The notes beneath the pieces were generated by a model. That model searched no databases. It was given only the letters and a program-made list of their open reading frames with translations, and was not told the DNA's origin. Below are positions 2,177 through 56,533 of a stretch of 64,000 nt of DNA, piece after piece (the stretch's first letter is position 1; each line of letters begins with the position of its first letter). A program made the position numbers and the translations under genes. The DNA is from Eledone cirrhosa (lineage: Eukaryota), in the NCBI GenBank assembly GCA_964016885.1, contig OZ024741.1, positions 72,292,001-72,356,000 of the forward strand. The letters are read 5' to 3'.

Positions 2177-3635
2177 TAATAATGATTTCTGTATTAGCCA
2201 CACAGTGCTTACATCAGACAAACAATAAAGACGGCATATTACGACACACTGTGGGTTTTTGTGTGGAAAAATGTTATAATAAAAACTAAACCTTAAAAAA
2301 TGTTATAATAAAAACTAAACCTTAAAAAATGTTATAATAAAAACTAAACCTTAAAAAATGTTATAATAAAAACTAAACCTTAAAAAATGTTATAATAAAA
2401 ACTAAACCTTAAAAAAAAAGGTTATAATAAAAACTAAAAAAAAAACATTTATAAATAAAACAAAACAAATTGCCCTCCAAGGAAGGAAGACTTCGAAGGT
2501 CACTCGTGGAGAATGCTTACAAATAGCCAGTCAATCTGACAGCTAGGGCCAGTACCCCCTCCCAGTTGTCCTCCTTCAATCTACAGTTGTTTACTGAGAG
2601 TAGGTCCATTCACCCGGGCCATACTCTCATCCATCTCTCAACAAACTGTTTGGAAGGCAGCACTTTCCTAGACACACTGAACCTTCCTGAAGTGAAACGT
2701 GAAAAAGTTAATCAGGGCCTTGCCAAAGATGAAAGTACTTTCCATAAACCCTTTCAAACGTCTCTGCTACACGACCTTTTTCACCATGGCCACCAAGCAG
2801 ATATAACCTCCTGTCCTTACCGACTAAAGGGAGGCGACGGAACGATCTTCATCATGGAGTCAGCTGATAACCGTATACGTCTTACACACGACAGCAGGTA
2901 TTCGACATAACCCACAATTCAGCAATGTTAGGACACTCGACGAGAGCGTGCAATGTCAGTTGACGGCACATCCATGCCTGCAGAGTTTATCTCGAACTGA
3001 CAATGCTCCCCAATAGCAGTGCCAGTCCAGGGATTTCTGGAAGTTATCCATTGGACCTGGACCGAAAGTACTCCGGAAAAGTGTGACTAGTTGATTTTCG
3101 TCGCTTTTACTCGCCACTATCTGTCTATAGAACGCCAAGATGGAGTTTTAACCGGTCGTACTGTCCAATAGGCAAAAGGCTGTCAGTGCTTGAAGACATT
3201 CCAGTTTCCAAGCGCTCCCTCTCGGTTTTCTCTTGACGTACAACTGCAGCTCTGTCAAAGAGACGAGCTGTGGAAACACACGCCTAGCAAACGGTGACCA
3301 TACTTGTTCACTGTCAAGGAGAAACTGGAGATACTGCAGCCTCAGCGAATGTCTGCGCATCATCAGCCAAGGCATGAATTTTTTCACGCAGAAGGTGTTG
3401 GCAACAAATGGACCGCCTGACCATTGGTATGCATCCCTTCCACAAAAATCGAAAGAGAAAACGCTCTAGTGCAGTCAAACGTGGACCAGGAGAAGGCATG
3501 ACATTCACTAGGTAGTAGCTGACGGACGTGATGTACGCGTGCGCCACCTCTGATCTACCTTTCAGGGATAACTTCCTTTCGGTCCATTTCTGGGTGAGAG
3601 AGGCCATCCTACTCGTTACCTCGTCCCAGTTTTAG
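2177..3635 (-). mobile_element. Old 5'-truncated Tx1-like LINE (ORF2 C-terminal part plus 3' UTR) with an (ATT)-type tail
   Basis: Minus-strand ORFs 3314-3607, 3148-3387 and 2956-3138 (LTQKWTERKLSLKGRSEVA, MPWLMMRRHSLRL, GPMDNFQKSLDW) are homologous to ORF2 of the 21.9-45.8 kb array. The 3' end reads TGTGGCTAATACAGAAATCATTATTAG. Confidence 0.9.
2267..2440. repeat. 30-bp tandem repeat (AAAAATGTTATAATAAAAACTAAACCTTAA), about 5.5 copies, within the LINE 3' UTR
   Basis: Unit read directly from the sequence. Confidence 0.95.
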
Positions 3636-23874: not shown

Positions 23875-26800
23875 GACGTGTGTAACTTCGCGGAGAAGTT
23901 TCCGTTAATTTATGTAAGAAAAAAACGTGAGTTTTTAGTTAAATATTATATTATTGTGTAACCTTCAGGTGGTGGGTCAACTCATTTTCGCCCCTACAGG
24001 GGCGAAATATCCGTTAGAAATTTTTCTCCATCGAATCTTTGAAAAAATATTGTAAAAGTTTGATTACGTTATGAACGCTGCATCCAACGATAATGGTGGT
24101 GGAGAGACGGTAAGACTACAAAGCTCGCAGTCAACAACGTCTTCTTCCCTAGATACTATAGAGATGGAAAGACGAAATGAAAATGCAAAAACAAATTCAT
24201 ATCCAAACAACACAAATGACACCAAACAGTTCAATGACAACAAAAATAACAGCAACACCAACAATGATGATAAAAACAACAATGATAACAACAACAAAGA
24301 AAAAAATAAAGACAACACCAATAACACCAGCATCAAAGACAACAACAACACCAAGGAAAATACGAATAATATCAACATCGGTGACAACAAGAATAACAAC
24401 AAGAATAACAACAATAATGACAACACCACCAACACGGATAATTCCACAAAGGAACCAAAAATCTCCTTTGTAGAGACAGTTAAAAAAAGGAGGAACTGAT
24501 ATATCTCGACATAACAAATGCTGAACAACTTTTAAAGGACGCTAGGAGATATGTCACTTTCGAAAAAAATGGTGCTTTCAGCATCAATTCTCCGGTAGAA
24601 ATTCGCAAGGAAACTACTCTCAAAACGATAGTTTTTAGGACAGTTTCCAATTCTACCCGAAAACCAGTCCAATTGTCACAGAAAGAAATTGAACTGGTTT
24701 TCAAAAATTCAATGAATGATATTGCATTCATTCAAAGAAACAAACTTTTGGGGAGTATTTCGGTACTCATGAAGGATCAATTGACGGCCCAAAATTACTC
24801 TGTGTCGCCAATTGTATCCAACCTGTACACCTTTTTCCCTACATACATGAGAAAAAGGACACAAAAGATCAAAATCACGAGTGTCACACCAAAGGTGAAC
24901 ATATGGTGGATACTGTGCGGCTTCATCAATTTTGATGAAGACAGAATACTGTCAGTAGGAAAGTCCCCCAGAGATGTATTCAATGGGACTAGCATTGAAG
25001 TTCTGGTGCAAATGAGCCCAGAGCGAATAGCTATGATCCCACAACGTGTACTCCTGGACGGACTCACCTACATAAACTTTTCGGTTGAGGGTAGGCGGCC
25101 TTCATGTTACCATTGCTTTAGCAGGGGTCACCTGAGGGCTTCCTGTCCTAAATTAATGAATAAAAAAAAGGCTCTTCTGCCGCACCCATCAAAACAACAC
25201 AACCACCAACACCACAACAACAACAATACCAACACACAAAAATAACCACAACAAACACAGTCCCACCCAAACCCCACTCCACCTAAAACCACTGCAAAAT
25301 CACATACAGACACAACAGCTCCCCAAGACATACCCCTCCCCAATCACACAGACGATACAACAGATGAGGCTATCTGGCCATCACCCAGTGAAGACGAGGG
25401 AGAACCCCATAGCTCGAAAAGAAAGAAAAGACATCACAAAAGCAAAAAACCAGCAAACACTGAGCCAATGCGGCAAACGCAAATCTCCAGATCTCGACGG
25501 TTTACCCGTAGCAATGCCGGACTTATTCTCCAGTCTCCTGGAAGCGGTCTACTGCAACTGGCAACAGAACGGGAGAATTCCCAGTTCTGTAACCGGGGGC
25601 GTGGTCACACTAATCAGGAAGGACGAGAATAAGGGGGATGACATAGGCAACTTCCGGCTCATAACTCTGCTAAACACAGAGTTACAGATTTTGGCCAAGG
25701 TGTTGGCAAAGAGGCTGGCGCTTGTCGTCGAGAACCTGGTGGGAGAAGCGCAGACATGCGCAATCCCGACCAGGTCCATACACGACAACCTCCACCTCAT
25801 GCGATACATCATAGAGAGGGTAGGGTGTAAACCCGGCTTCGGTGGGGCCCTGATCAACTTGGATCAGTCTAAGGCTTTCGATAGGGTTGACCATCGTTAC
25901 CGGGATGCGCTGCTCGAGGCGGCAGGCTTCGGACCCGTGTTCAGGGGCTGGATTGCTGCAATGCACAACAGCAACATCTGCTCAAGGGTCAAGGTGAACG
26001 GCTACCTCTCGGAGCCGTTCAATATTACGCGATCCATTCGACAGGGATGCACTCTCTCCTCCATTCTGTACGTACTGACTCTCGAGCCACTACTGCGGAA
26101 GTTGGAGCTATTGCAGGGCATCCCTCTGGAACCGGGACTGCGGAAAGCGGCGTCGGCCTACGCCGACGACGTTACAGTAATGGTGTCGAGCGCCTCGCAA
26201 ATCGAGGAAGTCGGCACCTTACTGAAGGAATACGAAAGTTTCACAGGAGCGAAGCTGAACCGGGACAAGTCCATCGGTTTGCAACTCGGATCGTGGAGAG
26301 GCAAACCGATGCCTTCCGATGGCGTCGTCGGACGCTGGACGGAAGGACCGGTAAAGCTGCTCGGGGTCTGGTTTGGTCCGGACCTCCAGGTGGAGAAGAA
26401 CTGGAACGAAGTGACGGCCAAGGTGTTTGCACTCACCCAGAAGTGGGCCGAGTGCAAACTATCCTTGAAAGGTCGAGCGGAGGTGGCGAACACTTTTATA
26501 GCGTCCGCCATCTACTACCGCTTGACCGTCGTGCCTTGTCCAGCCAAAACGCTCGCCAAAATGGAGCGCGCCCTCTTCCGATTCCTTTGGAAGAGGCGGG
26601 CTCCTTTGGTGAGAAGATCCATCTGCTGCCAACACCCTTCTAACGGAGGGCTGGGGGTGCCGTGGTTGACGATGCGCAAACACGCGCTCAGGCTGCGGCA
26701 TCTCTACGTATTCCTGACCGGTGTGGGCCCCATTCGTGAGGCGAGCCTTCCCACGACTCGTCTCGCTGACCGAGCTGCAGTCCTGGGTCAAGCAAAGACC

Positions 26801-27648
26801 GAGGAAAATGGGCGACTGGCACATCGAATGTGCTCAGGCACTCACAGCCCTCTGGCAGGCGGACCCGGCGATCAGTGGAGACTCCACTTCGTCATTCTAT
26901 AGAGGGTTGGTCCGCAGCAAGTGCGACGACGCGCTCGGTGAAACTCTAGGCGTAGAGGAAGATGAACTGGCCAGTCTGTTCGGTAGGACCTTCCGCCCGG
27001 GACCGATGGACAACTTCCAAAAGTCCCTGGCCTGGCAGTGCTACCGAGGAGCTCTACCAGTTCGAGACAAGCTCTACAGACATGGGCGCCCGGGTAGGGA
27101 CCCTGCAAAAAAGATCTGTCCGAGGTGCGTGCGAGACGAAGAAACCGTCGCGCACGCATTCATACACTGCCCGGGCGTCACTGACCTGTGGGGCTATGTA
27201 GAACGACTATTGTCGCGGGTGGGACCAATCCAGTTGACCACCGAGTCCATTGTCATGATCAAACCACCACCCTCCTTCAAAAACGAAGGAGAGGCGGTTT
27301 TCCTTTGTGTGATAGCTATGGCGAAAGAGGTTGTATGGTGGACAAGGTTGAAAGGGCTGAGGTCAGACACCTTTCTCTCCGGCCAACAACTGATTCTTTT
27401 TTTCAAATACCACTTTGGAAGAAGAATCAGGATGGAGAGAGAGGTGCTGTACCCCAGCAAGTTTTATGAAAGGTGGGTGAAAGTGGCGAGAATGGCCCGA
27501 GTGAATGGGCCTTCTCTCTATATCAGCCTGTAGGTTGAGGAAAAGGAGGAGGAGAGGAAAGGAGTACAAGCTCTTCGTACTCCTGGAGATGAGGGTTGCA
27601 CATTTTTTTTCGGGGGTATGTGTTACCCATATAAACTGTCTCCCTCTA
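23875..27648 (+). mobile_element. Tx1-like copy B: 5' UTR and frameshifted ORF1 fused to RT (endonuclease deleted), 3' end clipped
   Basis: ORF1 pieces 24071-24499 and 24673-25245 (CYHCFSRGHLRASC knuckle). The sequence jumps at ~25460 to LSQCGKRKSP (RT). An 8-nt deletion lies at 26720. ORF2 stops at 27533 and there is no (TATC) tail. Confidence 0.92.
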
Positions 27649-27675
27649 TAGATAGAGCTGGTTTTAAAAGACGTC

Positions 27676-28887
27676 ATGAAGGACATCACCTTCATTCAGA
27701 AGGATAGACTCTACGGGAGTCTATCCATTCTCATGAAGGACAGGGACACAGCAGTGAAACTGTCCATCAAACCAATCACATCCACCGCATACACCTTCTA
27801 CCCTACGTACATGGGTAGAAGAACACAAAAAATAAAAATCCACACCATCCTGCCGATTATGGACATATGGTGGGTTTTGACAGGTTTCCTGGACCTGGAG
27901 GATGACATGCTGGTGTCCATGGGAAAGGCATCGGGTGACGCGTTCAGTGGAACGAGCCTCGAACTTGTAGTTCAAATGAGGCCCGAAAGGATCGCCCAGA
28001 TCCCTGAACGCGTGATACTGGATGATCTATCCTTCATCAACATTACCGTTGAGGGTAGACGGCCCTCGTGTTACCTCTGCGGAACCAGAGGTCACCTGAG
28101 GGCTATCTGTCCCCAACTTAATAAGAAAACCCCAATCCTGCCTACACCACCAACAACTGCACAACCAACACAATCACCACAACTACCACTACAAAAACAA
28201 CCACCACAGCCCAAACCAAAACAAAACAATGTCCAACCCATCCCCTCCACTCAAAAAACAAAAACAATTTCCAAAACACCCGCACCGCAAACACAACCCG
28301 AAAATATACCCCTCCCCTCCAACGCGGAAGATGACCCTAGTTCGTCGTCAGACGAGGAGGAGCACTTCCACACAATCAAAAGAAAAAAAAGAAAACACAC
28401 CTCAGACACACAAATGAAAACAACCCCTCCCCAAAATATAACACTGACACCAACACAAAAGAGCTCACAACAACAGCAAACAAAAAACACCACACAAAAA
28501 CAAAAACATGCATACACATACATAAACACAAGAAACAAAAAACTGTTAAACATTGTGTACAACAATCTAATAAAAACACAAGGGCCTAACTTCACCCAGG
28601 CAGGGGATTTCCCCCACCTCAAAATGATTAAGGCCCCACAGGACACCTATAAAACTTTAAAAAACAATTTTAAAGAGGACGTGGGTCCCCCCTGCGTCGG
28701 GCCCATTAACCGCGTCCTCCTAAAAAACTACCCCACCCCCTCCCCAAACACCCACACAACTCCAAGCTCCCCAACCACACAACACACTGATGCCCCTACA
28801 CTTCCACAAACCACTACCCCACCCAACAACCCATCCCCCACCCTAATGGAAATTGTGCAGCCCGATACCCGGGACGCAGAGAGGTAA
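27676..28887 (+). CDS. ORF1 (gag-like, CCHC zinc knuckle, Pro/Gln/Thr-rich linker), N-terminally truncated
   Basis: CYLCGTRGHLRAIC = CX2CX4HX4C; homologous to ORF1 of copies B, D and E. Confidence 0.85.
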   Translation: MKDITFIQKDRLYGSLSILMKDRDTAVKLSIKPITSTAYTFYPTYMGRRTQKIKIHTILPIMDIWWVLTGFLDLEDDMLVSMGKASGDAFSGTSLELVVQMRPERIAQIPERVILDDLSFINITVEGRRPSCYLCGTRGHLRAICPQLNKKTPILPTPPTTAQPTQSPQLPLQKQPPQPKPKQNNVQPIPSTQKTKTISKTPAPQTQPENIPLPSNAEDDPSSSSDEEEHFHTIKRKKRKHTSDTQMKTTPPQNITLTPTQKSSQQQQTKNTTQKQKHAYTYINTRNKKLLNIVYNNLIKTQGPNFTQAGDFPHLKMIKAPQDTYKTLKNNFKEDVGPPCVGPINRVLLKNYPTPSPNTHTTPSSPTTQHTDAPTLPQTTTPPNNPSPTLMEIVQPDTRDAER

Positions 28888-28911
28888 GTGCCTTTTCTCT
28901 TCACCACCAAC

Positions 28912-31900
28912 ATGGCTATGCTAAGAGTAGGCTATTTAAATGCGCGTGGCCTGGGCTCAACTTGGAAGCAAGCAATGCTTCTAAATGACCTCAGGTCACA
29001 ACGTATAGATGTGATGGTTATTTGCGAGGCCCGGATCAGCAACCTGCGACAGCTGGCCCCCACCTTTGATGACTTTGAGATGCACGCATCTCTCTGTCAG
29101 CCCGGAGATGGGGGTGGAGTTGTCGTTCTGCTGCAAAAACATCTGGGTCTCGCAACACAGATGGTACATTTGGACCCGGAGGGTCGACTAGTGGTTCTGG
29201 ACCTTGGCAGTGGTAAAGGCGGAGCGTTTAGGTTGGTAGCCGCCTACGGCCCTTTCGGGTCAATGCGGCCGGACTTCTTCCATCGTCTGGAGACTTTTCT
29301 AGGGACGTCCCGCTCCTTGCTATTAGTGGGGGACTGGAATGGTATCCTAGATGCACGCTGGGACTACGTAGGGGCCTGCCCCGATAGAGAGGGGTGTAAT
29401 AGCCTCAAAGGGTTAATCGGTCGATTTGACCTGGCCGATAGATATCGACTAGATTTTCCGACTGCGCCAACCTGGATTGGGCAAATCGTAGCGGATCATC
29501 TAGGTCGTACCTAGATAGGTTCTTAGTTAGAATTAAGGATAAGGACTTTTTAAGTTGTCCAAAAATGCGCATGGTTGGCTATTCAGACCACAAATTAGTG
29601 AGCTGCATGGTCAACCTTGACAGAACTCATAGACAGGGACCCGGTTACTGGAAGCTCAACTTGTCCTTACCGGCAAGTAAGGCTTACAGGAACCGGATTA
29701 GCACTTTAGTTAAGGAGCGGTTGACGGGCGCCATCGTCAACAGCAGGTGGTGGGGATCTCTCAAAAGAGAGATTAGAGTAGTCTCTATAGAATTTAGTAA
29801 GGAGTTAGCCTCAAATAGAAATAGGAAGGAAAGGGAGTTGGTAGATAGTGTAGAAGGGGCAATTAGAAGCGGCGACGTGGCCAGAGTGCTAGCGTCGAGA
29901 ACGGCCCTGGGCCAGTTCTTCGACGCGAAACACGAAGGCTGCATCGTCCGAAGCAAAATACGTGCTCTGGGAAACGAGGGGACCAAAGCTGTTAGCTGGG
30001 CCCGCGTGACAGAAGCCAAAAGAGGGAGCAGATCCACTATCCGGTATTTGCGAGACTAGGATGGACGGGTGATCCTTAAACCTAAGCAGATGTGCGAGGC
30101 TTTTCAAAAGCACTTTGCCGGATTGTTCGGAAGGGGCGGGGGGCCGGTTGGGGACGTGGACTTCGGTCCATACCTCGACGGCCTGCCGCGTCTCTCGGAC
30201 AGGGAGGCGAAGTCCTGCGAGGAGCCGATTTCAGCCGCTGAGATAGAGGACGTGCTGAGCCAATGCGGCAAACGCAAATCCCCGGGTCTCGATGGTCTTC
30301 CATACGAACTATATCTAGCTATGCCGGGCTTGTTCCCCGAAATCCTCGAGGCGGTCTACTGCAACTGGCAACAGAACGGGAGAATTCCCTGTGCTGTGAC
30401 CAAGGGCGTAGTCACGCTAGTGAGGAAGGACGAGAACAAGGGGGACGATATAAATAATTTCAGGACCATAACTCTGCTAAATACAGAGTTACAGATTTTG
30501 GCCAAGGTGCTAGCAAAGAGGTTGGCGCTTGTCGTGGGCAACCTGGTGGGAGATGCGCAGACATGTGCTATCCCGTCCAGGTCCATCCACGATAACCTCC
30601 ACCTCATGCGATACATCATAGAGAGGGTTGGGAACGAACCCGGCTTTGGTGGGGCCCTGATCAACTTGGATCAATCTAAGGCATTCGATAGGGTCGACCA
30701 TGGTTACCTGGATGCGGTGCTAGCGGCGGCAGGCTTCGGACCCGTTTTCAGGGGCTGGATCAACGCCATGCACAGCAGCCGCATCTGCTCTAGGGTCAAG
30801 GTGAACGGCTACCTCTCGGAGCCCTTCGAAATCGCGCGGTCCATCCGACAGGGGTGCCCTCTCTCCTCCCTTCTGTATGTAATGACTCTAGAGCCACTGC
30901 TGCGGAAGTTGGAGTTGTTGCAGGGCATCCCGTTGGAACCGGGATTGCGGAAAGCGGTGTCAGCCTACGCCGATGACGTAACAGTAATGGTGTCGACGGC
31001 CTCGGAAATCAGGGCGATCGGCACCTTACTGGAGGAGTACGAAAGGTTTACAGGGGCTAAGCTGAACCGGGACAAGTCGATCGGTCTGCAACTCGGCACG
31101 TGGAGGGGCAGATCGATGCCCTCCGATGGCGTCGTCGGGCGCTGGACGGAGGGCCCGGTGAAGTTGCTCGGGGTCTGGTTCGGACCAGACCTCCAGGTGG
31201 AGAAGAACTGGGGTGAGGTAATCAACAGGGTGTTTGCACTGACCCAGAAGTGGGCCGAGTGCAAACTGTCCCTGAAAGGACGGGCGGAGGTGGCGAACAC
31301 TTATATAGCGTCCGTCATCTACTACCTCCTGACCGTTGTGCCTTGCCCAAGGGAAACGCTCGCCAAAATGGAGCGCGCACTCTTTCAATTCCTTTGGAAG
31401 AAGCGGGCTCCTATGGTGAGGAGATCCATCTGCTGTCAACACCCTTCGAAAGGAGGACTGGGGGATGCCGTGGCTAATGATACGTAAACACGCATTAAGG
31501 CTACGGCACCTTCAGGTATTCCTCTCCGGTCAACCGGTGTGGGCCCCGTTTATGAGGCGAGCCTTTCCCAGACTCGTCTCACTCACCGAGATGCAATCCT
31601 GGGTCAAGCAAAGACCGAGAAAACTGGGCGCCTGGCACACCGAGTGTGCCCAGGCACTCACGGCTCTCTGGCAGGCGGACCCGGCTGTCAGTGGAGAATC
31701 CACCTCGTCATTCTATAGAGGGCTAGTGGTTAGCAGGTGCGACGACGCCCTTGGAGAAGCCCTAGGCATGGAGGAAGACGAACTGGCCAACCTGTTCGGT
31801 AGGACATTCAGCCCGGGACCCATGGATAACTTCCAGAGGTCCCTGGCCTGGCAATGCTACAGAAGGGCTCTGCCCGTTCGAGAAAAGCTCTACAGACACG

Positions 31901-32349
31901 GGCGCCCGGGTAGGGACCCATCGAAAAAGATCTGTCCCAGATGCGTGTGCGACGAGGAAACCGTTGCACACGCATTGGTACACTGCTCGGGCATTGCCGA
32001 TCTGTGGGGTTATGTCGAACAACTGCTGTCAAGGGTGGGACCAATCCGGTTGACCACCGAGTCTATTGTAACGATCAAGCCGCCTCCCCTCTTCAAAAAC
32101 GAAGGAGAGGCGGTGTTTCTGTGCGTAATAGCCATGGCGAAAGAGGTTGCATGGTGGACGCGTCTGAAAGGACTGAGGTCAGACACCTTTCTCTCTGGCC
32201 AACAACTGGTCCGTTTCTTCCGATATCATTTCGGAAGAAGGATCAGGATGGAGAGAGAGGTGCTGCACCCCAGCTGTTTCTATGAAAGATGTGTGAAAGT
32301 GTCGAGAATGGCCCGTGTGAATGGGCCTTCACTCTACATCAGACTATAG
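28912..32349 (+). pseudogene. ORF2: APE endonuclease, RT and C-terminal zinc finger; two frameshifts and one in-frame stop
   Basis: LNARGL, GDWN, SYLDRF and SDH (APE); KSPGLDG, LDQSKAFDRV, RQGCPLS and YADD (RT). Frameshifts at ~29475 and ~31462; TAG at 30057. Confidence 0.93.
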
Positions 32350-32613
32350 GTGAGGAAGATGAAAGACCAAGGGAGCACCTCTTCTCTGTGCTCCTGAGGA
32401 GAAGGGTTGCACACTTTTTTCGGGGGTGTGTGCGACCCCCCAAGGCGCCTCCTCTCTATTGAGGACTTTGTTATAAATTATATTTTTTGTTATATTTTAT
32501 TTTATTTTTATATATTGTTATTGCCTCCTCCTTATTGAGGACGCCTTGTTTTGTAAACTCCCCCCATTGTACTTGTCCCACTTTTGATGCCCTGGTGGCA
32601 AATAAAAGAAACA

Positions 32614-32698
<85 letters not shown>

Positions 32699-32706
32699 CT
32701 CTACCT

Positions 32707-35700
32707 GACGCGTGGAACATCGCCGGTAAGATTTTTTGTCAATTTATAAGAAAAACAGAACAAATTGTTTGAAAAAACATATTATTTTGTAGATTAACCC
32801 CCAAGCCGAATTGTCAGCTGGGTGGTAATCCCATTTTTCGCTCCTTTAGGGGCGTAAATTTAATTTACAAATTGTTTTAAAATATCAAATTTTGCCAACT
32901 ATAAAACATGAATAACACGAAGTGAACGCTGGAGAACGTCGACAGAGAGAGAAAAAGAGAGAGAAAAAGGCAGATTTTAACGTTATATCTGCTTCTGCTA
33001 CTATGGACGTCGCCATAGATACGACTGTCAACAAAGGGAAAAAAATATTGCCACTTGAAGATTGTACAATTTCTACCGTCGAAGCGGAGAAAAATGAAAA
33101 CACAGGAATTAAACCCATTAACATACATACACATGAAAAAAAACAACATCAACAACTCCACAGATACATCTACACATAAAGTTTCACCTCATCAAGGAAC
33201 TGAGATTTCCAACACCGAGGCTAACAACGATAACAACAACAACAACAACAGCAACACCACACGAAAAAAAAAATGTCTTTCGCTGAAACAGTGAACAAAA
33301 AACAAGATTTTATAAATCTTGACAACTCCAATGCAAGAGATATGCTCCAGCAAGGGAGAAAATTTGTAACTTTCGAAGAGAAGGGTGGATTTAGAATTAA
33401 CTCACCCCTCGAAATAAAAGAAGACACAGTTCGAAGGACCTTTAGGACTGTGTCCAATACCACGAGAAAGCCGATATTTGTTAGTCAAGGAGATATAGAA
33501 GATACCTTGAAGGAAATTCTAGCAAATATCGACTTTCTCCAACGAGGAAAACAGTACGGAAGTGTTTCCGTACTGTTTGAAAGCGAGGCATTCGCCCCAA
33601 AACATTCTGTGACACCAATGGTGTCAAAAGCATTCACCTTTTTCCCTACATACATGGGAAAAAGGACAAAAAAAAAATACCACCAAAGATTAACATCTGG
33701 TGGATCTTGGCTGGCTTCGTAGAGCCAGAAACTGATATGATTCTTTCGATACGAAAGTCTATTCGACAAAGGTGGGCGAGTACTGATTTGGAGATTCTGT
33801 TGCAAATGAGGCCGGAGAGAATCTCCAAAATACCCGACAAAGTCGTCATCGACGACAACAACAAAATAAACATTTCGGTAAAAGGACGAAAATTTCATTG
33901 CTTTCGCTGTGGTAGCACAGCACACCTAAAAGCCTCCTGTCCTTCACAAACACACCACAACAACATCATTAAAAAAACACTATTACCAACACCCACACAA
34001 CCACCACCACCACAAGTACAACAACATACGAAACGAGCAACCACACCAAAACAAACAGCCACTCAACCAACAACACAGAAACAACAAAGACAACACCCCT
34101 GAAGAACACAGCCCCACCCATCCCACTCCATCAAACACTACCACAAACACACACACCGAAACACCACCGCCACACAACATACCCCTATCCCACACTCCTG
34201 ACGATGATTATTCATCGACGGATGAAGCTGCTTCTCCTTCTTTGAAATGAAGAAGAGGGAGAGCCGCGGAAATCTAAAAACCCCAAAAAGAGACACCATA
34301 AAACCCCCAAAACTCCAACCACCAACACTAACACACAACCACAGACAAACAACAACACAAACAACACCACAGTCAAACATCCCTCTACCAGCAAAACCAA
34401 CACCAACACCACCCCAAACACCAGCACCCACCATAAAAAGAAAACTCCCGGACGAACAACAAATTAAAACAACACAACAAAGGCACAAACAACAATATGT
34501 ATACATCAACACAAACAACAAGAGTTTGATGGAGGTCATCTCCCAAAACCTCAAGGTGGAGACGGAGGTCAAAACTTTCGTCAAGGCAGAATCGTCTCCA
34601 CAACATCAACTTATAAGGATTTCTATGGAAACCTATAATGACCTGAACAATAAATTTTCACAGGACGTGGGCAACCCCTGCCAGAAACCCATCAACTGCG
34701 TCCTGTTAAAATGTTTCCCCACCCCACCCAACACCCCATCCAGCACCCAAATGGAGATTGAACAACTCGATCTCCAGGAAACGAAAAGGTAAGTGCACCT
34801 TTTCGCCCCTTTTCTCCAACTTTTCTTCACCAACATGGCTAGTTTACGAGTTGGAAGCGTGAATGTGCGTGGCCTAGGGATATCCTGGAAACAGGGCCAA
34901 CTTTTAAACGACCTTAGTTCACACGGTATGGATGTGATAGTCATCACCGAGTCCAGGATCCACAACAGGCAGCAACTAACCCCCATCTTCGACGACTTTG
35001 AGATCTACGCATCTCTCTATCAGCCAGGAGGTGGAGGTGAAGTGGCTGTCATGTTTCGGAAGAACCTGGATGTCGAAGTACAGCAAGTACACTTGGACCC
35101 GGAGGGTAGACTAGTAGTCCTAGACGTGAACATTATTGGAGGTGGAGCCTTCAGACTGGTGGCCGTTTATGCCGTTTAGGCCGTTTATGCTCCGACCGGG
35201 CAATCGCAATCACGGCCAGACTTCTTTAAGCGTCTAGAGTCTTTCTGGGAACATCTCGCTCCTTACTTTCAGTGGGGGACTGGAATGGTATCCTAGATGA
35301 ACGATAGGACTATGTGGGAGCATGTCCCAGTAGAGGGGGGAGGGTGCAACAGCCTCAAAACTTTAATCGGCCAATTCCAACTGGCCGATAGGTATCGACT
35401 GGATTTCCCGACTGCACAACAGTGAACGTGGGCAAACCGCAGCGGGACATCTAGATCGTATTTAGATAGGTTCTTCATTAGAGAAAGGGACAAGGAGATG
35501 TTAAGCTGTCCACGAATGCACATGGTTGTCTACTCAGATCACAAATTAGTCGTCTGCTTAGTCAACCGTGATAGAATACATAGGCAGAGAGTTAGCCTTA
35601 GAGACAAACAGAATAGAAAGAGAACTAGTAGCCAAGGTAGAGGAGGCACTTAGAAGTGGCAACGCGGTTAGAGTATTAGCGTCGAGAACGGCACTAGACC

Positions 35701-38403: not shown

Positions 38404-41400
38404 GACGCGTATAACATCGGCTCCTGCCTTTTTGAATTTTTACCCATTGACAGTAAGTGTTTGTCTCTTTATTGTGTTGTCTTCGTGCCTTTTAACCACC
38501 CCGCTAGGACTGTAGACGGGTGGTCATCGTATTTTTACCCCCTTTGGGGGTAAAAACTACTCCAAAAATTTTTGCTGACTCACATGGTAAAAAATTGACG
38601 CCTTGTCTGTAGCACGTGTGGACGATAACGCCACGCTCACTAAGGAAGAAGAGAGAAAGAAGCAAGCGGTACAAAGCGTTTTGCTTTCTCGCGTCAATGT
38701 TTTAAAAGACTTTGTAAAAGGCGATATGCCGGACAAACAATTAAATATGGGTGCAAACCCAATTAATTACAACAAAAACACTAACAATGACAAAACCAAC
38801 ACACCAAATGAGAAAGACAACAACAACAAAAATGAAAATAACACAAACTACGAGAAACAGAACAACTCAAACACCAACAACGAAAACAAAATATCTTTTG
38901 CACTGACTGCTAAAATATCAGTCACCTATGTGCTTGAAGATATAACAAATGCAAAAGAAATGCTTGAAAAAGCAAAAAAATATGTATCGTTTGGCGAAAA
39001 TGGATCTTTTTCCATCAATTCGCCCCCAGAACTAAAAAAACAGACGGAATTACGAACTGTTGTATTCCGTACAATTGCAAACAAAACAAAAAACCAGCAC
39101 AACCATCTCAAGCTGAAATTCAGTTGGTCCTGAAAGAGGCTATGAAAGACATAATTTTCATACAAAAGGATAAACTCTATGGGAGTTTATCCATATTGAT
39201 GAAAGACGAATTGGCGGCGAAAAAATACTCTGTGTCGCCAATTCGTTCCACACATTACACCTTTTCCCCCACCTACATGGGTAAAAAACCCCAAAGAATT
39301 TGGATAACCACCACCACTCCAAACATAAACTACTGGTGGTTACTAAACGGTTTCTTCAACTTGGACGAGGACAAACTTATATCAATAGGGAAGGCATCCG
39401 GCGACGCGTTCAGTGGAACGAGCATTGAAGTTCTGACCCAAATAAGGCCAGAACGTATCGCCCAAATCCCTGAGCGCGTCTTGCTGGATGACCGTACCCA
39501 CCTCAACATTATTGTGGAGGGTAGGCGTCCCTCCTGTTACCTCTGTGGCAATAGAGGTCACCTGAGGGCTGCTTGTCTCCAGCTCACACCGAAAAAAACA
39601 TTGCTACCAACACCCCAACAACCAACACCACCACCACCACAACAACAACAACAAAAACAACCACAACAACAACAGCAACAAAAACCAACAACACCACCAC
39701 CACAACAACAACAAACACGTGAAAAAACAACACAGAACACTGTCCCACCCAACCCCTCCCCACCCAAAACAAATACAAAAACACACACACCGCAAACACT
39801 ACCAGAAAATATACCCCTCCCACCCAACAAGGAAGACGAACTCCTTTCGTCGCAAGACGAAAAAGATCCCTTCCAAATAGTAAAAAGAAAGAAGAGGAGG
39901 CGCACCACAGACACACTTATTAACATTAACCCTCCCCAAGAGAAAACAAACTATATACAAACCACCCCTCCCCGTCACACAACACTAACTGCTACGCAAA
40001 AAAAGACTTTACAATATACATATATGAACACAGACAACAAAGAACTAATGAACACAATTTCGTCAAACCCTTCGGTCCAAACGGAAGGGCCTAACTTTCT
40101 AACTGCTGTGGGACTACCTCATTTACAAATGATTAAAGTCCCAATGAACTTATACAAAACGTTGAAAATAAATTTCACGGAGGACGTGGCCCCCCCCCCT
40201 GCTCCAAGCCAATCAACCGCGTCCTCCTAAAAAATTTCCCCACCCCCTACCCAGACACCCACTCAACCACAAACACCCCAACCCCATAACACACTGATGC
40301 CCCTACACTCCCCCCCAACAACCCATCCCCAACCCTCATGGAAATTGAGCGGCCCGCTCCCCGGGACGCAGAGAGGTAAGTGCCTTTTCTCTTCACCACC
40401 AACATGGCTGTGCTGAGAGTAGGGTGTCTAAATGCGCGTGGCCTGGGCTCACCTTGGAAGCAAGCAATGCTTCTAAATGACCTCAGGGCACGATCTATAA
40501 ATGTGATGGTTATCTGCGAGGCCCGGATCAGCAGCATGCGACAGCTAGCCCCCACCTTTGATGACTTTGAGATGCACGCATCTCTCTGTCAGCCCAGAGG
40601 TGGGGGTGGGGTTGTCGTTCTGCTGCAAAAACATCTGGGTCTCGCCACACAGATAGTTCACTTGGACCCAGGGGGTCGACTGATGGTGCTAGACCTTGGC
40701 AGTGGTGAAGGTCGGGCCTTTAAGCTGGTAGCCGCATATGCCCCTTTTGGGACAGAGCGTCCCGACTTTTTCCAGCGTCTGGAGTCTTTTCTAGGGACGT
40801 CCCGTTCCCTGCTTTTAGTGGAGGACTGGAATGGTATCCTGGATGCACGTTGGGACTATGCAGGGGCATGTCCCGATAGAGAGGGGTGCAACAGCCTCAA
40901 GGGGTTACTCGGCCGATTTAACCTGGCCGATAGATTTCGACTAGATTTTCCGACGGTGCCAACCTGGTCTTGGTCAAATCGCAGCGGTCAATCTAGATCG
41001 TACCTTGATAGGTTCTTAGTTAGGAATAAGGACAGGGACATTTTAAGTTGTTCAGAAATGCTCATGGTTGGCTATTCAGACCACAAGTTGGTGACCTGCA
41101 TGGTCAACCTTGATAGAACGCATAGACAGGGACCCGGTTACTGGAAGCTGAACTTGTCCTTACCGGCAAGTAAAGCTTACAGGGACCGGATTAGTACGTT
41201 AGTTAAGGAGCGGTTGACTGGAGCGATCGTCAACAGCAGGTGGTGGGTATCTCTAAAGAGAGAGATTAGAGTAGTCTCGATAGAATTTAGTAAAGTTCTA
41301 GCTGCGGATAGGAATAAGAAGGAAAGGGAGCTGATAGATAGAGTAGAAGAGGCAATTAGAAGAGGCGCCGTGGCCAGAGTGCTAGCGTCGAGAACGGCTT

Positions 41401-49493: not shown

Positions 49494-52345
49494 TATCTCT
49501 TTCTCTTAATTTTGAGTATATTTTTTTGACCGGCCACCTTCCTGGTGGCAAGGTTGTAAATGAAAAGAAATTGTCATCCCTTGAATCGCAAGAATGTTTT
49601 GCAAATTTTGAAGGTGCCAGCTATCGCAGCCATCTGCAGACTATGAATTAGGGAGCTGCGCTTTTTGTCCGCAAATCCAAGTTCAGTCATACTTTGGTCC
49701 AAGCGGGTTGGTATATAACCCGTAGCTCCAATAATGATGGGTATGAAGCTAAAGGTGTATCTTGGATACTGGATTTGTAAACTCCTCATCAATGGTCCGT
49801 AGATGTCCTCCTTCTCCTGTATTTTTCTGACAACGTTTGCATCAAGTGGGCAGCTGATCTCCACAACAGAACACGTTTTCAATATGTGGTCCCAAACAAC
49901 AATATCAAGCCGGTTGTGCTTTAATTTGGTGGCAGTTTTTATTTTCAGGTTCCACCAGTATTCCTTAGTGCCATCTGTCTCAATATATTCTTCCTCGTTT
50001 GTTGTTAATTTTGTTTTCCGAAGTACGTTCCAGATGGTTCTAGCTATCCCATCGTGTCTCATGGGGAGGTAGTAGCGAGATGACATTCTTTCGCAGCTGG
50101 CAACAATGTGGCTTACATCCTCAATCTTTGTTTTACATAGCCTACATTTATTGTCAGCTGCTGGCCCTCCTCTTTTGTGCAGCAGATATTTGGTAGGGAG
50201 TTCTTGTTACTGTATTGCATAGAGATATCCCTCAAGGTGTGATGTCATAAACTTGTCGGAACTCAATGCCAGGCCTTTTGAGTGGTTTATCCCCTCTATG
50301 GTCTGTGTTTTACGCCTCAAGTATCCATGCACAACTTTTTCTGTAAATTGGTCAATTTTTTAATCTTGTTTGAACATTGAATAGGATCTTCCGATTTCTC
50401 TGGGTGAGAGATTTCTATCAGGCTTTATTCCATATCTCTCCTCCAGATCAGTCGCTATTCTAATGATATTTTTTTTTTCATGCTCATAAACCTGGGCAAG
50501 ATGGTTGCCAACCTTTTTCCTCTGTTGAAAGTGTTGCTTCAGTGTTACTATCCGGGTCTCATATGTTGTTCATATTGATTTTAGACCCCGGCCACCTTCC
50601 TTGCGTGAGAAGTATAGCCTATCCACATCACCATTGATGTTAAAGTTCCCAGTAACACTGAGAAGTTTTCGAGTTCTAACATCCATCTCAATTAGTTCTT
50701 GCAATGACCAGTTCAGCAGGCCAAATGTTGGCGTTAGAATTGGCACAGCATAAGTATTGTGGGCAATGTATTTTTTGTACGCTGACAATTCTGATGACCA
50801 TATTTTCTTTACTCTTCTGAGGTATTCAGTTCTGGTTCTCTCCTTATTTATGGGTCCATCATATCTGACATTCTCATCCTGTCCAAGATATCTGTAGTTG
50901 TCACCTGACTGTAGAGGTTGTATTGTCAGGCCGTTCATCTCTAGATTTCTAGAGGAGGGCACAGCTCTTCCACGTTTTACTGCCAAATATGCACACTTGG
51001 ACTCACCAAATTTCATTTTGATGTCGGTTGAAAATTGTGTAATGAGGTCCAATTGTTTCTTGATGTCATTGATATTTGGCCCATACAACTTCAGGTCGTC
51101 AACAAAGAAAATATGGGAGATACTTCTGGGCCCACTTCTTTGTCCACCTTGTTTCCTGAGTAGGTAAGATAGTGGATTCAGTGAGAGAACGAAGAGTAGC
51201 ACTGACAAGCTATTACCCTGAAAGATGCTCTTCTGGTAATGTATCTTATCAGTCTTAACTTGCTCCTTCTCACCTCTAAGGATCAAATTGGTGTACCAGT
51301 TCTTGGTCAGGCGTTCAACAGCAGCTACCAATGGTTGTGGGACTTTAGCTAACTGTAAAGCCTTAATAATCCACTCATGAGGTACACTATCAAATGCTTT
51401 TTGATAGTCCAGCCACACCACAGTCATGTTTCTGCGATTCTTTGTTGTTTTTTCCTGAATCATTTTGTTAGTTAGTAGGTGATCTATGCAACCCCACACC
51501 TCTCTCTTTCCACCAGCTTGCTCAGGTGTTATGATGTTGTTGGTAGCACAGTGATCCTGTAAGAACAGGTTAAGGCACCCAGTATATAATTTATACATGA
51601 TGTTTTGGGCGGTAATTTTTAGCAAGGGTGGTTTGGCTATTTTGGGGAATGAGGAGAGTAGTGGCAGTTGATAACCATCTGGGCAGTTCTTGTGTGCCTT
51701 TAATGGTTTCTGTAAACAGCCGTATGAGATCTTGCCGATAGAAAGTGAAATTCTTCAACCAGTATCCTGTAATGAGGTCTGGGCCTGGCGATTTCCTATT
51801 CGACATTTTCTGTAGAGCTGTTTCCAGTATTGATCCATCTATGTCATATTGTTTTGTCTGGACATGTTGGCAGTAGTCCTGTTCCAGTTCTTTTAGCCAA
51901 TTAGTTTGTCTGTTGAATCCGTCATCCGTTTCCCATACAGATCTCCAGTAGCTCTCAACCTGTTCTTTTGAAGGGGTGTCGTTTACAGGGATTGAGCTTT
52001 TGCCACCGAAGCTGCGATAAACTGATTTAGGATCTCTGGCAAACAATCTATTTAGCACTTGTCGTTTATATGCTGTTGACTTATATTTTAGTCTTTCTGT
52101 TGTAGCTGTGAGTTGTTGTTTCAACTGGTGTAATTTGGAGTTCAAAGTTTTAAATTTTGTATCTCCAAATCGTCTCTCTAACCTTTTTTTAGGTCTTCCT
52201 GGTGTCGTGTGAAGTTGCTCTCTATGTTGCATTTCATAACGACTGCGATGTGTGAGATACTTCGTCTCAGGGACAACATTTTGCTTTTTAAATTTCGCAT
52301 CCACGCTGGTTCAGGCTTTCTGTTTGTATCTTGATTGCGTGGTTT
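49494..52345 (-). mobile_element. R4/Dong-like non-LTR retrotransposon (RT, CCHC, RLE), 5'-truncated and decayed, inserted in (ACAT)n
   Basis: KSPGPD, NYRP, WLDYQKAFDSVPH, IFQGNSLS and FFVDDLKLY (RT); CRLCKTKIEDVSHIVASC (~50090-50148); RHD, RLDIVVW..VEISCP (RLE). Flanked on both sides by (TATG)n. Confidence 0.9.
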
Positions 52346-53728: not shown

Positions 53729-55000
53729 GGTTCCAGGACTGATGTCACAAAAGATTTATTTCAAACCCAAACTTCACATTAAGAGTTATCGCCTTCAAAG
53801 TAATCCCCCTGGAGTCTAATGCACTTTTCCATCCTTTTCTGCCACGCTTGCATGCACTCCTGGAAGGATTCTTCCGGGATCCTCCGCAGTTCCGTCGTCA
53901 CGGCCTTTTTGATGTCGTCCACGTCTTCAAAACGGGTCCCCTTGATGACCCCCTTGAGCTTGGGGAATAGGAAAAAAATCACACGGAGCCAGGTCGGGGG
54001 AGTAGGGAGGTTGCTCCAGCACGGCGATGTTCTTCTCGACCAGGAACTGTCGGATGTTCAGGGCATTGTGAGCAGACGCGTTGTCATGAAGCAGCCACGT
54101 GTTGTTCTGCCTCAACTCTCGCCTCTTCGCACGCACTGAACGAAGCAAACGCTGCAGCATCTCTTTGTAGACATGTTGGTTGATCGTCTGGCCCTGTGGC
54201 AAGAACTCGCAGTGGACGATCCCCCTCACAACGAAGAATGTGATCAACATGACCTTCAATTTGGACTTCGACTGTCGTGCTTTCTTCGGCCTTGGCGACG
54301 ATGGACTTTTCCACTGAAGGCTCTGGCCTTTGGTTTCCGGGTCGTACTCGAAGATCCATGACTCATCACCGGTGATGACTGTCCCTAGTAAGTCTGGTTC
54401 GGTTTCAAGACGCTTGAGGCTGTCCTGCCAGACTTGCATGCGTCGACCCTTCTGTTCATCGTTCAGCAGTTTTGGCACCATCTTCGCGCAGACTTTCCGC
54501 ATGTCCAAATCTTCAGTGAGAATCTTCCAGACGCTGTCCCGATTCAGGCCCAGCTCATTTGCCATCAGTCGAACAGTCAGCCAACGATCGCTACACACCA
54601 TCTGCCTGACGCGCTCAACGTTGATCTCAGTCCTGGTTGTTGAGGGCCTTCCGCTCCTGGGGTCATCTTCCACGTCCTCGCGTCCTTCTTTAAACCTCTT
54701 GCACCACTCAAAAACACGTGAGCGTGACATCGTCTCATCTCCATACACTTGCTGCAGCAATCCCACTGCTTCTGATGGAGTTTTCCCCAACCGTACCAGA
54801 AACTTCAAGTTTGTTCGTTGCTCTGTGCTCATTGCTTGACGACCTGAAACAGAGGACATGTATATAGAATTATGAAGAAAAAAGTTTGATCGCTTCAGAG
54901 AGCTAAGATTACAATTACCTACTCCAGGGGGATTACTTTGAAGGAGAAAACTCTTATTGTGAAGTTTGGGTTTGAAATAAATCTTTTGTGACACACCTCG
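53713..55000 (-). mobile_element. Mariner transposon with ~100-bp TIRs and TA target duplication
   Basis: TA|CGAGGTG...CACCTCG|TA. The TIRs share TGTCACAAAAGATTTATTTCAAACCCAAACTTCACA..CTTCAAAGTAATCCCCCTGGAGT; the right TIR has a ~21-nt deletion. Confidence 0.95.
53779..54832 (-). pseudogene. Mariner DD34D transposase, frameshifted near 53975
   Basis: Start MSTEQRTNLKF; DDPRSGRP; TGDESW; HDNA-(34)-YSPDLAPCDF. The C-terminus FPKLK...GDYFEGDNS lies in another frame. Confidence 0.95.
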
Positions 55001-55007
55001 TATATGT

Positions 55008-55560
55008 ATATTAATTTAAGTAAAAAACCGAAAGTTATTTTATTAACTCGCATGTTCGTTTCAATTTTAACGAAATATAATTACGAAAATATTGAAATAA
55101 TAATTTACAGATTAATTAATTAACCTAACAAATCAATAAAACAGTTGCAATCACATAAAAAAGTCTCACCAGGAAATCGATATAAGATTTGGAGAATGCA
55201 TGCCCCAAAAATTTCCAAGCCATGGTCAATAAATTATAGTTATTAAAAAGTCTTTTTATATAAAAGAAACATATGCAAAACAGTTGATTGTATGGGCGAA
55301 GGAAAACGTTAGTTTTTTTTAAAGTATCATACAATTAGATTAAAGCCATAAAAAGTCCAATATAAGGCATAAGTCCTCCAAGCTGTAATATAGTTTAAGC
55401 GCAAATATATTTTTTAATTACTAAATGCTATTATTTTCTGGTTTAATCTTATTAAAAAATATTACGTTATTTTGAAAACATAACGTTTGACAGCGGTATT
55501 CAGCCAAAATTGAAACGAACGTAGAATTTAATAAAATAGTTTTTTACTTCAATTAATATT
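55008..55560. mobile_element. Possible decayed MITE; adjacent ~85-bp direct repeats at 55577-55660 and 55898-55980
   Basis: GTTCGTTTCAATTTT (~55054-55068) and AAAATTGAAACGAAC (~55506-55520) form an inverted pair. Confidence 0.4.
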
Positions 55561-56280: not shown

Positions 56281-56533
56281 TATGGTGAACTAACTATTGT
56301 GTAACCATTTCTACCTAACTCGTCCCTTGGACTGAGTGCTCTACCACTACGGATATTACCTTCCAGTGTTCCACCACTATTTACGTCTCCAGCAGCGGTC
56401 AGCAGATTCTTCTCACTACGTAGAAGTTTGGCTTTTAGCAGATTCTCCACCACGTGCGAGTTTGGCTTACTACCCTGAGAGCGCTCTATATATCCTCGTG
56501 TCCTACACAATTTTGCGTCTCATCAACGTCAGT

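What the first reader, a model, noticed from the sequence alone, without database searches (positions are those of the whole stretch)
28881..32349. ORF2 may be one large spliceosomal intron: donor on the ORF1 stop, acceptor at the ORF2 end
Seen: in all three copies with the boundary, the ORF1 stop lies inside a consensus 5' splice site: GAG|GTAAGT (C, GT at 28884; E, 40376) and AAG|GTAAGT (D, 34789). This holds although the ORF1 ends differ (TRDAER vs LQETKR). ORF2 ends in a pyrimidine tract plus YAG: CCTTCTCTCTATATCAG|CCTGTAG (A, 23504), CCTTCACTCTACATCAG|ACTATAG (C, 32342), CCTTCTCTTTACATCAG|CCTGTAG (E, 42601). Donor and CAG acceptor are both phase 2, so splicing would give ORF1-(S/R)-L-stop using ORF2's own TAG. 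The alternative TAG|G acceptor gives an immediate stop in C or a basic tail in A, D and E (e.g. RLRKRRRRGK). Known: copia-type LTR elements make spliced gag-only RNA to set stoichiometry. Inference: an analogous ORF1-only mRNA in a LINE, which I do not recall being described. Caveats: the branch point is weak and D lacks the CAG.
Basis: partly seen in the sequence, partly recalled or inferred. Interest (0 to 1): 0.8.

Follow-up and report, generated by a model that had tools for sequence, protein, structure and literature searches.

The report
Conserved splice donor in LINE, unspliced
A very active group of jumping genes (LINEs) keeps a near-perfect splice-donor motif exactly at the end of its first gene across divergent families, but the proposed acceptor is not conserved and no genomic copy is spliced, so the motif likely works as a docking site for the U1 splicing particle rather than making the second gene an intron.

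Summary
Half right. The window holds a tandem array of microsatellite-targeting L1/Tx1-like LINEs. G|GTRAGT sits at the ORF1 end in 12 of 13 family representatives (the 13th has GTAGGT). It persists with three stop codons, in three reading frames, and beside unrelated ORF1 C-termini. Only 1 of 36 distant L1-like loci has it. The acceptor does not hold up. The CAG is missing in several families, one family with a perfect donor ends ORF2 in TAA with no acceptor, and the phase match is not general. None of 1454 genomic copies carrying the ORF1-end motif is spliced at the donor, and 0 of 13 internal deletions have GT..AG ends. A second donor-like motif lies about 20-50 nt from the 5' end and is also unspliced (0 spliced, 385 unspliced). 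No run on record as RNA was available. Best reading (about 45%): a mostly unspliced U1 docking site, predicted to be partly hairpin-masked, that supports full-length transcription. ORF2 as an intron: about 12%.

The parts
27628..28887 (+). ORF1 of copy C, 5'-truncated (open frame 27652-28887); holds a CCHC knuckle; ends in Arg then TAA
   Evidence: (97% aa identity to residues 183-593 of intact ORF1 in L033)
28846..28850 (+). ATGGA motif 38 nt before the donor; found 34-40 nt upstream in 9 of 9 representatives (one base differs in F3b; different codon frame in F3)
28881..28889 (+). Donor-like motif GAG|GTAAGT over the ORF1 stop (SD2), copy C
   Evidence: conservation
28890..28911 (+). Pyrimidine-rich inter-ORF spacer (75-85% C/T in 10 representatives) ending at the ORF2 ATG; predicted to pair with the purine-rich ORF1 end
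28912..32349 (+). ORF2 of copy C (APE endonuclease, RT, C-terminal zinc motif); broken by a frameshift near 29475-29510, a stop at 30057-30059 and a frameshift near 31450-31487
32326..32349 (+). Proposed acceptor region (CAG ending 32342, stop TAG ending 32349); codes G-P-S-L-Y-I-R-L-stop; not conserved as an acceptor
32350..32613 (+). 3' UTR of C with AATAAA at 32601
32614..32697 (+). (CTAT)n microsatellite, the insertion target separating the tandem copies
32726..32792 (+). Intron-like unit in the 5' UTR of D (GTAAGA to TAG, 67 nt); contains donor SD1
34786..34794 (+). SD2 of copy D (AAG|GTAAGT)
38453..38507 (+). Intron-like unit in the 5' UTR of E (GTAAGT to TAG, 55 nt)
40373..40381 (+). 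SD2 of copy E (GAG|GTAAGT)
23914..23968 (+). Donor-like motifs (GTAAGA at 23914, GTGAGT at 23927) and a CAG ending 23968 in the 5' UTR of B

Best explanation
The ORF1 end of this L1/Tx1-like lineage carries a conserved G|GTRAGT motif that is never found spliced in genomic copies and likely acts as a U1 snRNP docking site on the full-length bicistronic RNA rather than as the start of an ORF2 intron. Shown: the motif is conserved independently of frame, stop codon and ORF1 protein end; a second donor-like motif lies near the 5' end; no partner acceptor is co-conserved at the ORF2 end; no spliced retrocopy was found. Predicted: the pyrimidine tract just downstream folds back on the purine-rich ORF1 end and buries positions -1 to +2, as in retroviral donor hairpins. 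Inferred: U1 bound there would help polymerase pass from the A-rich ORF1, which holds AATAAA/ATTAAA hexamers, through the 3.4-kb ORF2 without premature termination or polyadenylation, while the hairpin and the lack of a good acceptor would keep real splicing rare.
For: Donor conservation: -1 to +6 invariant in 8 of 8 family representatives, flanks variable. GTAAGT in 29 of 29 parsed D-family loci (30 fetched), 30 of 30 F2-group loci, 29 of 30 F3 loci (one deleted across the site), and G|GT..GT in 17 of 17 neighbour junctions. It is kept in phase 2 (Arg-stop), in phase 1 in two separate branches with intact 658-aa and 641-aa ORF1s, and in phase 0 in copies of an older subfamily. The change at +3 is A to G, which stays within the donor consensus (consensus recalled). 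Outgroup: 1 of 36 distant L1-like loci has G|GTRAGT at the ORF1 stop. No splicing seen: 1427 copies read GTAAGT and all 27 variants at +1, +2 or +3 continue into the spacer and ORF2, against 2782 unspliced ORF2 ends; F2 family 2 variants, both point changes; 5'-UTR donor 385 unspliced and 0 with a non-G next base; 0 of 13 internal deletions GT..AG. G(-1) and G(+1) are predicted paired (probability above 0.96) in 9 of 9 representatives. 6 of 6 elements carry 2-7 A(A/T)TAAA hexamers upstream of SD2. Precedent: U1 binding at HIV SD4 raises transcription independently of splicing (PMC2875018, abstract and headings); 5' splice sites shield RNA from Restrictor termination (PMC12211998, abstract); donor hairpins limit U1 access (PMC4974535 and PMC2794156, abstracts).
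Against: No RNA or binding data: U1 binding and its purpose are inferred only. The hairpin has no covariation support (family-swap permutation p=0.21; native beats shuffled tracts at p<0.05 in 2 of 9), and a purine run next to a pyrimidine run pairs easily. The hexamers may only reflect ORF1's A-richness. The families are 69-76% identical over ORF2 and share 32 invariant runs of 7 nt or more there, so a 7-nt invariant run is not rare in itself; the weight rests on frame changes and divergent flanks, with only about 3-4 deep lineages. Changes at +3 and +4 in phase-2 families are also just stop-codon swaps. Human L1 keeps a little-used donor because it lies in a RUNX3 site (PMC5860796, Discussion), a precedent for a non-U1 reason. 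Strict cis preference could hide a spliced RNA from the retrocopy test.
Confidence: 0.45

Rival explanations
1. One reading: ORF2 is removed as one intron from SD2 to an AG at the ORF2 end, giving an ORF1-only mRNA that sets ORF1p:ORF2p stoichiometry.
For: Perfect donor kept at the ORF1 end, with the stop always downstream of the GT. In the young C family the TAG acceptor would give back the same ORF1 end, Arg then stop (read from the sequence). Leu-TAG ends ORF2 in all families read except F3. If the 5'-UTR unit and ORF2 were spliced together, strict cis preference would leave no spliced copies.
Against: F3 has the donor but ends ORF2 in TAA with no CAG, TAG or tract. CAG is absent in D, F2, F2old, F2b, L111-like and one E-like copy. 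Phase varies. The AGs are unremarkable among 111 YAG sites. 0 of 1454 copies are spliced, although any retrocopy of such an RNA longer than about 290 nt would show the joint.
Confidence: 0.12
2. SD2 is a working donor but pairs with another acceptor: a cryptic AG in ORF2 or the 3' UTR, the next element's 5'-UTR AG in an array, a host exon, or a nearby AG in the spacer or first ORF2 codons.
For: Donor conservation as above. Several families have a tract plus YAG just before the ORF2 ATG (F2, F2old, L111-like, B-like). One YAG with a 73-80% pyrimidine tract inside RT is invariant in 6 of 6 families.
Against: All 27 variant copies continue into ORF2, so no other acceptor left a retrocopy. Spacer AGs are absent in C, D, F3, L109, L306 and L311, and would give introns of only 30-38 nt. 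The RT-internal AG lies in conserved Pro-Val-Phe-Arg codons.
Confidence: 0.13
3. The motif is conserved for a reason other than U1: part of a hairpin that couples ORF1 termination to ORF2 reinitiation, or a DNA or protein binding site, matching the donor consensus by coincidence.
For: It sits at the stop-restart junction with a conserved ATGGA 34-40 nt upstream and predicted hairpins. LINE ORF2 is made by termination-reinitiation in SART1 and L1 (PMC5972666, passages). The human L1 donor is kept as a RUNX3 site (PMC5860796, Discussion).
Against: The invariant block is exactly the U1-complementary span and the tolerated changes are donor-compatible. A second GTRAG sits near the 5' end of most families, which translation coupling would not explain. 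No covariation support for the hairpin.
Confidence: 0.22
4. Neutral inheritance: an ancestral Arg codon, TAA and two bases that have not yet drifted.
For: The families share 69-76% nucleotide identity in ORF2, and the deep lineages are few.
Against: Flanks, spacer length (27-47 nt) and ORF1 ends have turned over, the frame has shifted at least twice and the stop codon has changed, yet G(+1), T(+2), G(+5) and T(+6) have not.
Confidence: 0.08

Closest known systems
Tx1-clade microsatellite-targeting LINEs (Kibi, Koshi, crocodilian Tx1; PMC4494074, passages)
   Same: Two ORFs, APE plus RT, insertion into simple repeats; here (CTAT)n and (ATT)n.
   Different: Other target repeats. No conserved donor at the ORF1 end turned up for them in my searches. 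Clade placement against named Tx1 references was not tested.
Human L1 splicing: SpIREs (PMC5860796, passages and Discussion) and SpORF2 (PMC2896524, passages)
   Same: A LINE keeps a conserved but little-used donor; a donor lies in the 5' UTR.
   Different: The human donor discussed is in the 5' UTR only, about 2% of full-length copies are spliced, and products lose 5' UTR or ORF1. Here a second donor marks the ORF1 end and no spliced copy was found (0 against 385 and 0 of 1454).
Spliced gag-only RNA of copia-type LTR elements (BARE1; PMC3735527, abstract)
   Different: LTR element with a demonstrated spliced RNA. Here no acceptor is conserved and no RNA evidence exists.
Retroviral donors that bind U1 without splicing or under hairpin control (HIV SD4, PMC2875018; HIV SD hairpin, PMC4974535; MLV, PMC2794156; abstracts)
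   Same: Strong donor kept on an RNA that must stay unspliced; predicted local hairpin over the donor.
   Different: Those donors are also used for abundant spliced mRNAs and were tested experimentally. This is a non-LTR element, and the role is inferred.

Membership tests
L1-group non-LTR retrotransposon | ORF2 with N-terminal APE endonuclease and RT | tested here: met
   RVT_1 E=1e-25 above cut-off; Exo_endo_phos E=4e-5, just under cut-off; best PDB match human LINE-1 ORF2p over residues 8-857, E=3e-48
L1-group non-LTR retrotransposon | Separate ORF1 with nucleic-acid-binding motif; C-terminal Cys motif in ORF2; no LTRs | tested here: met
   Intact copies with ORF1 about 595 aa and ORF2 1145 aa; CCHC knuckle in the sequence and Atlas zf-CCHC neighbours at 0.92; zf-RVT E=1e-5, under cut-off; 5'-truncated copies ending in AATAAA plus repeat
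Tx1 clade | Target-sequence preference | tested here: met
   (CTAT)n runs at the copy boundaries in the window and in 18 of 20 fetched 9-kb loci; (ATT)n beside F2 and F3
Tx1 clade | RT phylogeny groups with named Tx1 elements | not tested
Spliceosomal (U2-type) intron spanning ORF2 | Consensus 5' splice site | tested here: met
Spliceosomal (U2-type) intron spanning ORF2 | Branch point, pyrimidine tract and YAG conserved with the donor | tested here: not met
   F3 ends in TAA; CAG absent in several families; AGs unremarkable among 111 YAG sites. Branch point not scored.
Spliceosomal (U2-type) intron spanning ORF2 | Exon-exon junction in RNA | not testable with these tools
   No holder on record as RNA
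SpIRE-type spliced retrocopy | Genomic copies precisely lacking a GT..AG segment | tested here: not met
   0 of 1454 at SD2 in the C-type group, 0 of 2 variants in F2, 0 against 385 at SD1, 0 of 13 internal deletions. D, F3 and B-like families were not scanned genome-wide.
U1 docking site without splicing | U1 binding and a splicing-independent effect on RNA output | not testable with these tools
   Only sequence complementarity and conservation are shown

The most novel reading that the evidence does not exclude
This LINE lineage runs retrovirus-like partial splicing: a hairpin-tuned donor at the ORF1 stop (with a small 5'-UTR intron) yields an ORF1-only mRNA pool, using the ORF2-end AG in some families and other acceptors elsewhere, while only unspliced RNA makes ORF2p and is copied, so spliced forms never reach the genome.
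Probability: 0.22. Interest if true: 0.75.

Novelty: new variant of a known kind. Interest (0 to 1): 0.5.

Why it matters
LINEs are usually described as intronless RNAs for which splicing is a cost (PMC5860796). A lineage with thousands of copies that keeps a U1-complementary site at the ORF1/ORF2 boundary through frame and stop-codon changes, and a second one near its 5' end, suggests that a LINE can use the host's splicing particle for its own benefit. Either it mimics an intron-containing gene to escape premature termination, or it makes a separate ORF1 mRNA. Both are cheap to test with existing kinds of RNA data. Strong sense-strand donors in over a thousand insertions could also disturb host transcripts (inference).

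Tried and rejected
RNA: no RNA holder listed (6 runs, kind unknown), so there is no evidence on expression either way. Logan contigs of X4, X1, X5 and X6 were laid on intact copy L033: 15 of 248 joints were shown, none at the donor. One X4 contig bridges the 5'-UTR unit and another, from a diverged subfamily, bridges SD2, both unspliced. X4 alone: 5 of 5 joints shown, none at the donor and none GT..AG; 6 of 66 loose ends shown. X4's kind is not on record and contigs drop rare forms, so I do not count any of this; depth profiles were not used.

Stop readthrough: ORF1 and ORF2 are in frame in C and window D, but spacers of 23 and 41 nt after the stop in other subfamilies are out of frame; rejected.

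Mini-intron fusing ORF1 to ORF2: would be copied in cis and would have shown; none did.

Hairpin covariation: not significant. Rfam on an intact copy: one match at E=0.12, far below the gathering score.

Limits of the retrocopy test: it needs the exact 16-nt ORF1 end; acceptors whose exon starts with GTA were not covered; at SD1, exons starting with G were not covered; the F2 denominator was not counted. Tail lengths printed for family C are off by one base and were not used. In the tree three rows (L111, L306, L308) frameshift inside the aligned stretch, so their places are unsure. Earlier findings: three look-ups returned nothing.
Full report
What the window holds. Between about 21950 and 45770 lies a head-to-tail array of whole and partial LINE copies, separated by (CTAT)n runs. 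ORF2 has an APE endonuclease, RT and a C-terminal Cys motif, and its best solved relative is human LINE-1 ORF2p (E=3e-48). ORF1 has a CCHC knuckle. Insertion into simple repeats fits what is described for Tx1-clade elements such as Kibi and Koshi (PMC4494074, passages); clade membership by phylogeny was not tested. The genome is a 3.0-Gb animal assembly; its make-up looks cephalopod-like to me (recalled, untested). Copy C is 5'-truncated and its ORF2 is broken, but the family is young. A DNA search gave 1307 candidates with the best 40 at 99-100% identity, and many of 20 fetched copies have a 1145-aa ORF2, several also a 593-599-codon ORF1. L033 served as the intact reference.

The observation. 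The three donors in the window are inherited from one ancestor, so I tested the motif more widely.

The donor is strongly conserved. GTAAGT is present in 29 of 29 parsed D-family loci (30 fetched), 30 of 30 loci of an (ATT)n-targeting group F2, and 29 of 30 loci of a third group F3, whose ORF1 C-terminus is unlike that of C. In 20 neighbouring stretches, 17 of 17 ORF1/ORF2 junctions read G|GT..GT: 12 GTAAGT, 4 GTGAGT and 1 GTAGGT. Across 8 representatives, columns -1 to +6 are invariant and -2 is A in 7, while other columns vary; the groups differ by 29-49% in the first 60 residues of ORF2. The motif is not a by-product of the stop. It lies in phase 2 in C, D and F3, in phase 1 in F2 (intact 658-aa ORF1 ending Gly-Lys-stop) and in L305 (641 aa, Gly-Glu-stop), and in phase 0 in copies of an older F2 subfamily. 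L305 falls inside the supported C/D/B clade, apart from F2, so the frame changed at least twice. As a control, 36 of 74 metagenome loci held an ORF2 N-terminus; 1 of 36 has G|GTGAGT at the ORF1 stop and none has G|GTAAGT. A caution: the families are still 69-76% identical over ORF2 and share 32 invariant runs of 7 nt or more there, and there are only three or four deep lineages.

The acceptor is not conserved. The CAG exists in C, E, A and B-like ends, but not in D, F2, F2old, F2b, L111-like ends or one E-like copy. Leu-TAG is kept in most families, but F3, with a perfect donor, ends ORF2 in TAA with neither AG nor tract. The pyrimidines are the codons of Gly-Pro-Ser/Thr-Leu, and the two AGs fall in a tie starting at rank 9 among 111 YAG sites of the intact copy. 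An unbiased look at 65 AGs invariant in six families found one YAG with a good tract, inside RT in conserved codons.

No spliced copies. With the last 16 nt of ORF1 as anchor, 1427 copies continue with GTAAGT. All 27 that differ at +1, +2 or +3 are point changes or small indels followed by the spacer and ORF2. The young family has 2782 unspliced ORF2 ends. An RNA spliced as proposed would keep the 3' UTR and show its joint in any retrocopy over about 290 nt. F2 gave 2 variants, both point changes (denominator not counted). Of 13 internal deletions in 51 loci plus the window, none has GT..AG ends. In human L1, about 2% of full-length copies derive from spliced RNA (PMC5860796, Discussion). The test is weakened by cis preference, since an ORF2-less RNA must be copied in trans, and D, F3 and B-like families were not scanned genome-wide.

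A second donor. Most 5' ends carry GTRAG about 20-50 nt from the start (14 of 16 distinct 5' ends listed, of the other two one is truncated; also C and E). In C, D, E, B and L283 a YAG follows 55-67 nt later, but F3a lacks it, and in L111 and F2 the nearest AG is only about 35 nt away. An RNA spliced there would still encode both proteins, yet 385 young copies are unspliced and none has a non-G base after the first exon. So neither donor has left a spliced copy.

Local structure. The 75-85% pyrimidine spacer is predicted to pair with the purine-rich ORF1 end, burying G(-1) and G(+1) in 9 of 9 representatives, with AAGU mostly in the loop. Swapping tracts between families does not weaken the fold significantly (p=0.21), so this is a prediction only. 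An ATGGA motif lies 34-40 nt upstream in all nine (one base differs in F3b; another frame in F3). All six elements checked have 2-7 poly(A)-type hexamers upstream of SD2, and five have 0-1 between SD2 and the 3' signal; base composition may explain this.

Mechanism. I commit to a U1 docking site that is mostly not spliced (0.45). Shown: conservation, frame independence, no co-conserved acceptor, no spliced copy. Inferred: U1 binding and a benefit to full-length transcription, by analogy with HIV SD4 (PMC2875018, abstract and headings), protection from Restrictor by 5' splice sites (PMC12211998, abstract and headings) and hairpin-limited retroviral donors (PMC4974535 and PMC2794156, abstracts). 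Rivals: ORF2 as the intron (0.12); real splicing to another acceptor (0.13); a non-U1 role in termination-reinitiation or DNA binding (0.22; PMC5972666, passages; RUNX3 precedent); neutral inheritance (0.08). One version of the splicing idea escapes my tests: if both units were spliced together and only unspliced RNA made ORF2p, spliced forms would never be copied.

Novelty. Known: spliced human L1 RNAs that lose 5' UTR or ORF1 (PMC5860796; PMC2896524, passages) and gag-only spliced RNA of BARE1 (PMC3735527, abstract). Eight searches of the open library (listings only, apart from the papers named) showed no report of a conserved donor at a LINE's ORF1 stop. A recent octopus repeat annotation lists active L1-Tx1 families and has no occurrence of 'splic' in its main text (PMC13282606, passages). 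Subscription journals and Repbase were not searchable and I opened no supplements. Verdict: an ordinary Tx1-like LINE array with an unusual, real cis-element of untested function; new variant of a known kind; interest 0.5.

Noticed in passing
window 32726-32792, 38453-38507, 23914-23968; L033 5' UTR: Short intron-like unit (GTRAG donor, often a YAG 55-67 nt later) in the 5' UTR of most families; unspliced in 385 young copies, none found spliced.
   Followed up: partly
G000:C1:423365218-423418069; L282: Ten hits of the F2 family at a period of about 5840 bp; L282 shows them as head-to-tail units joined by short (ATT)n. Pairs at the same spacing occur elsewhere.
   Followed up: no
L304, L305, L308, L310, L111, L282, L273 inter-ORF spacers: In some families the spacer ends in a textbook 3' splice site (tract plus CAG or TAG) just before the ORF2 ATG, which could serve an ORF2-only RNA from the 5'-UTR donor, like human SpORF2. 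It is absent in C, D and F3.
   Followed up: partly
window 28846-28850 and equivalents: ATGGA and a predicted stem-loop 34-40 nt upstream of the donor in all representatives; a possible termination-reinitiation signal.
   Followed up: partly
window 21913-45771; L264-L282: Related families split into (CTAT)n-targeting and (ATT)n-targeting groups, each inserting beside its own kind.
   Followed up: no
window 27628: Copy C starts inside ORF1 and is joined directly into the 3' UTR of copy B without a microsatellite.
   Followed up: no
window 2584-3631 (- strand): Old, decayed 3' fragment of a related LINE, 37-65% aa identity to ORF2, whose 3' end resembles F3 but keeps TAG.
   Followed up: no
window 49574-52310 (-), 53927-55015 (+), 56336-58504 (+): ORFs that look like an RT-encoding retroelement with a restriction-like endonuclease, a mariner-type transposase inside an inverted repeat, and a Penelope-like RT with a GIY-YIG-like end (resemblances recalled from the translations, not searched).
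   Followed up: no
L170 (metagenome contig), ORF1 stop 87 nt before ORF2: A distant L1-like element with G|GTGAGT over its ORF1 stop, the only such case in 36.
   Followed up: no
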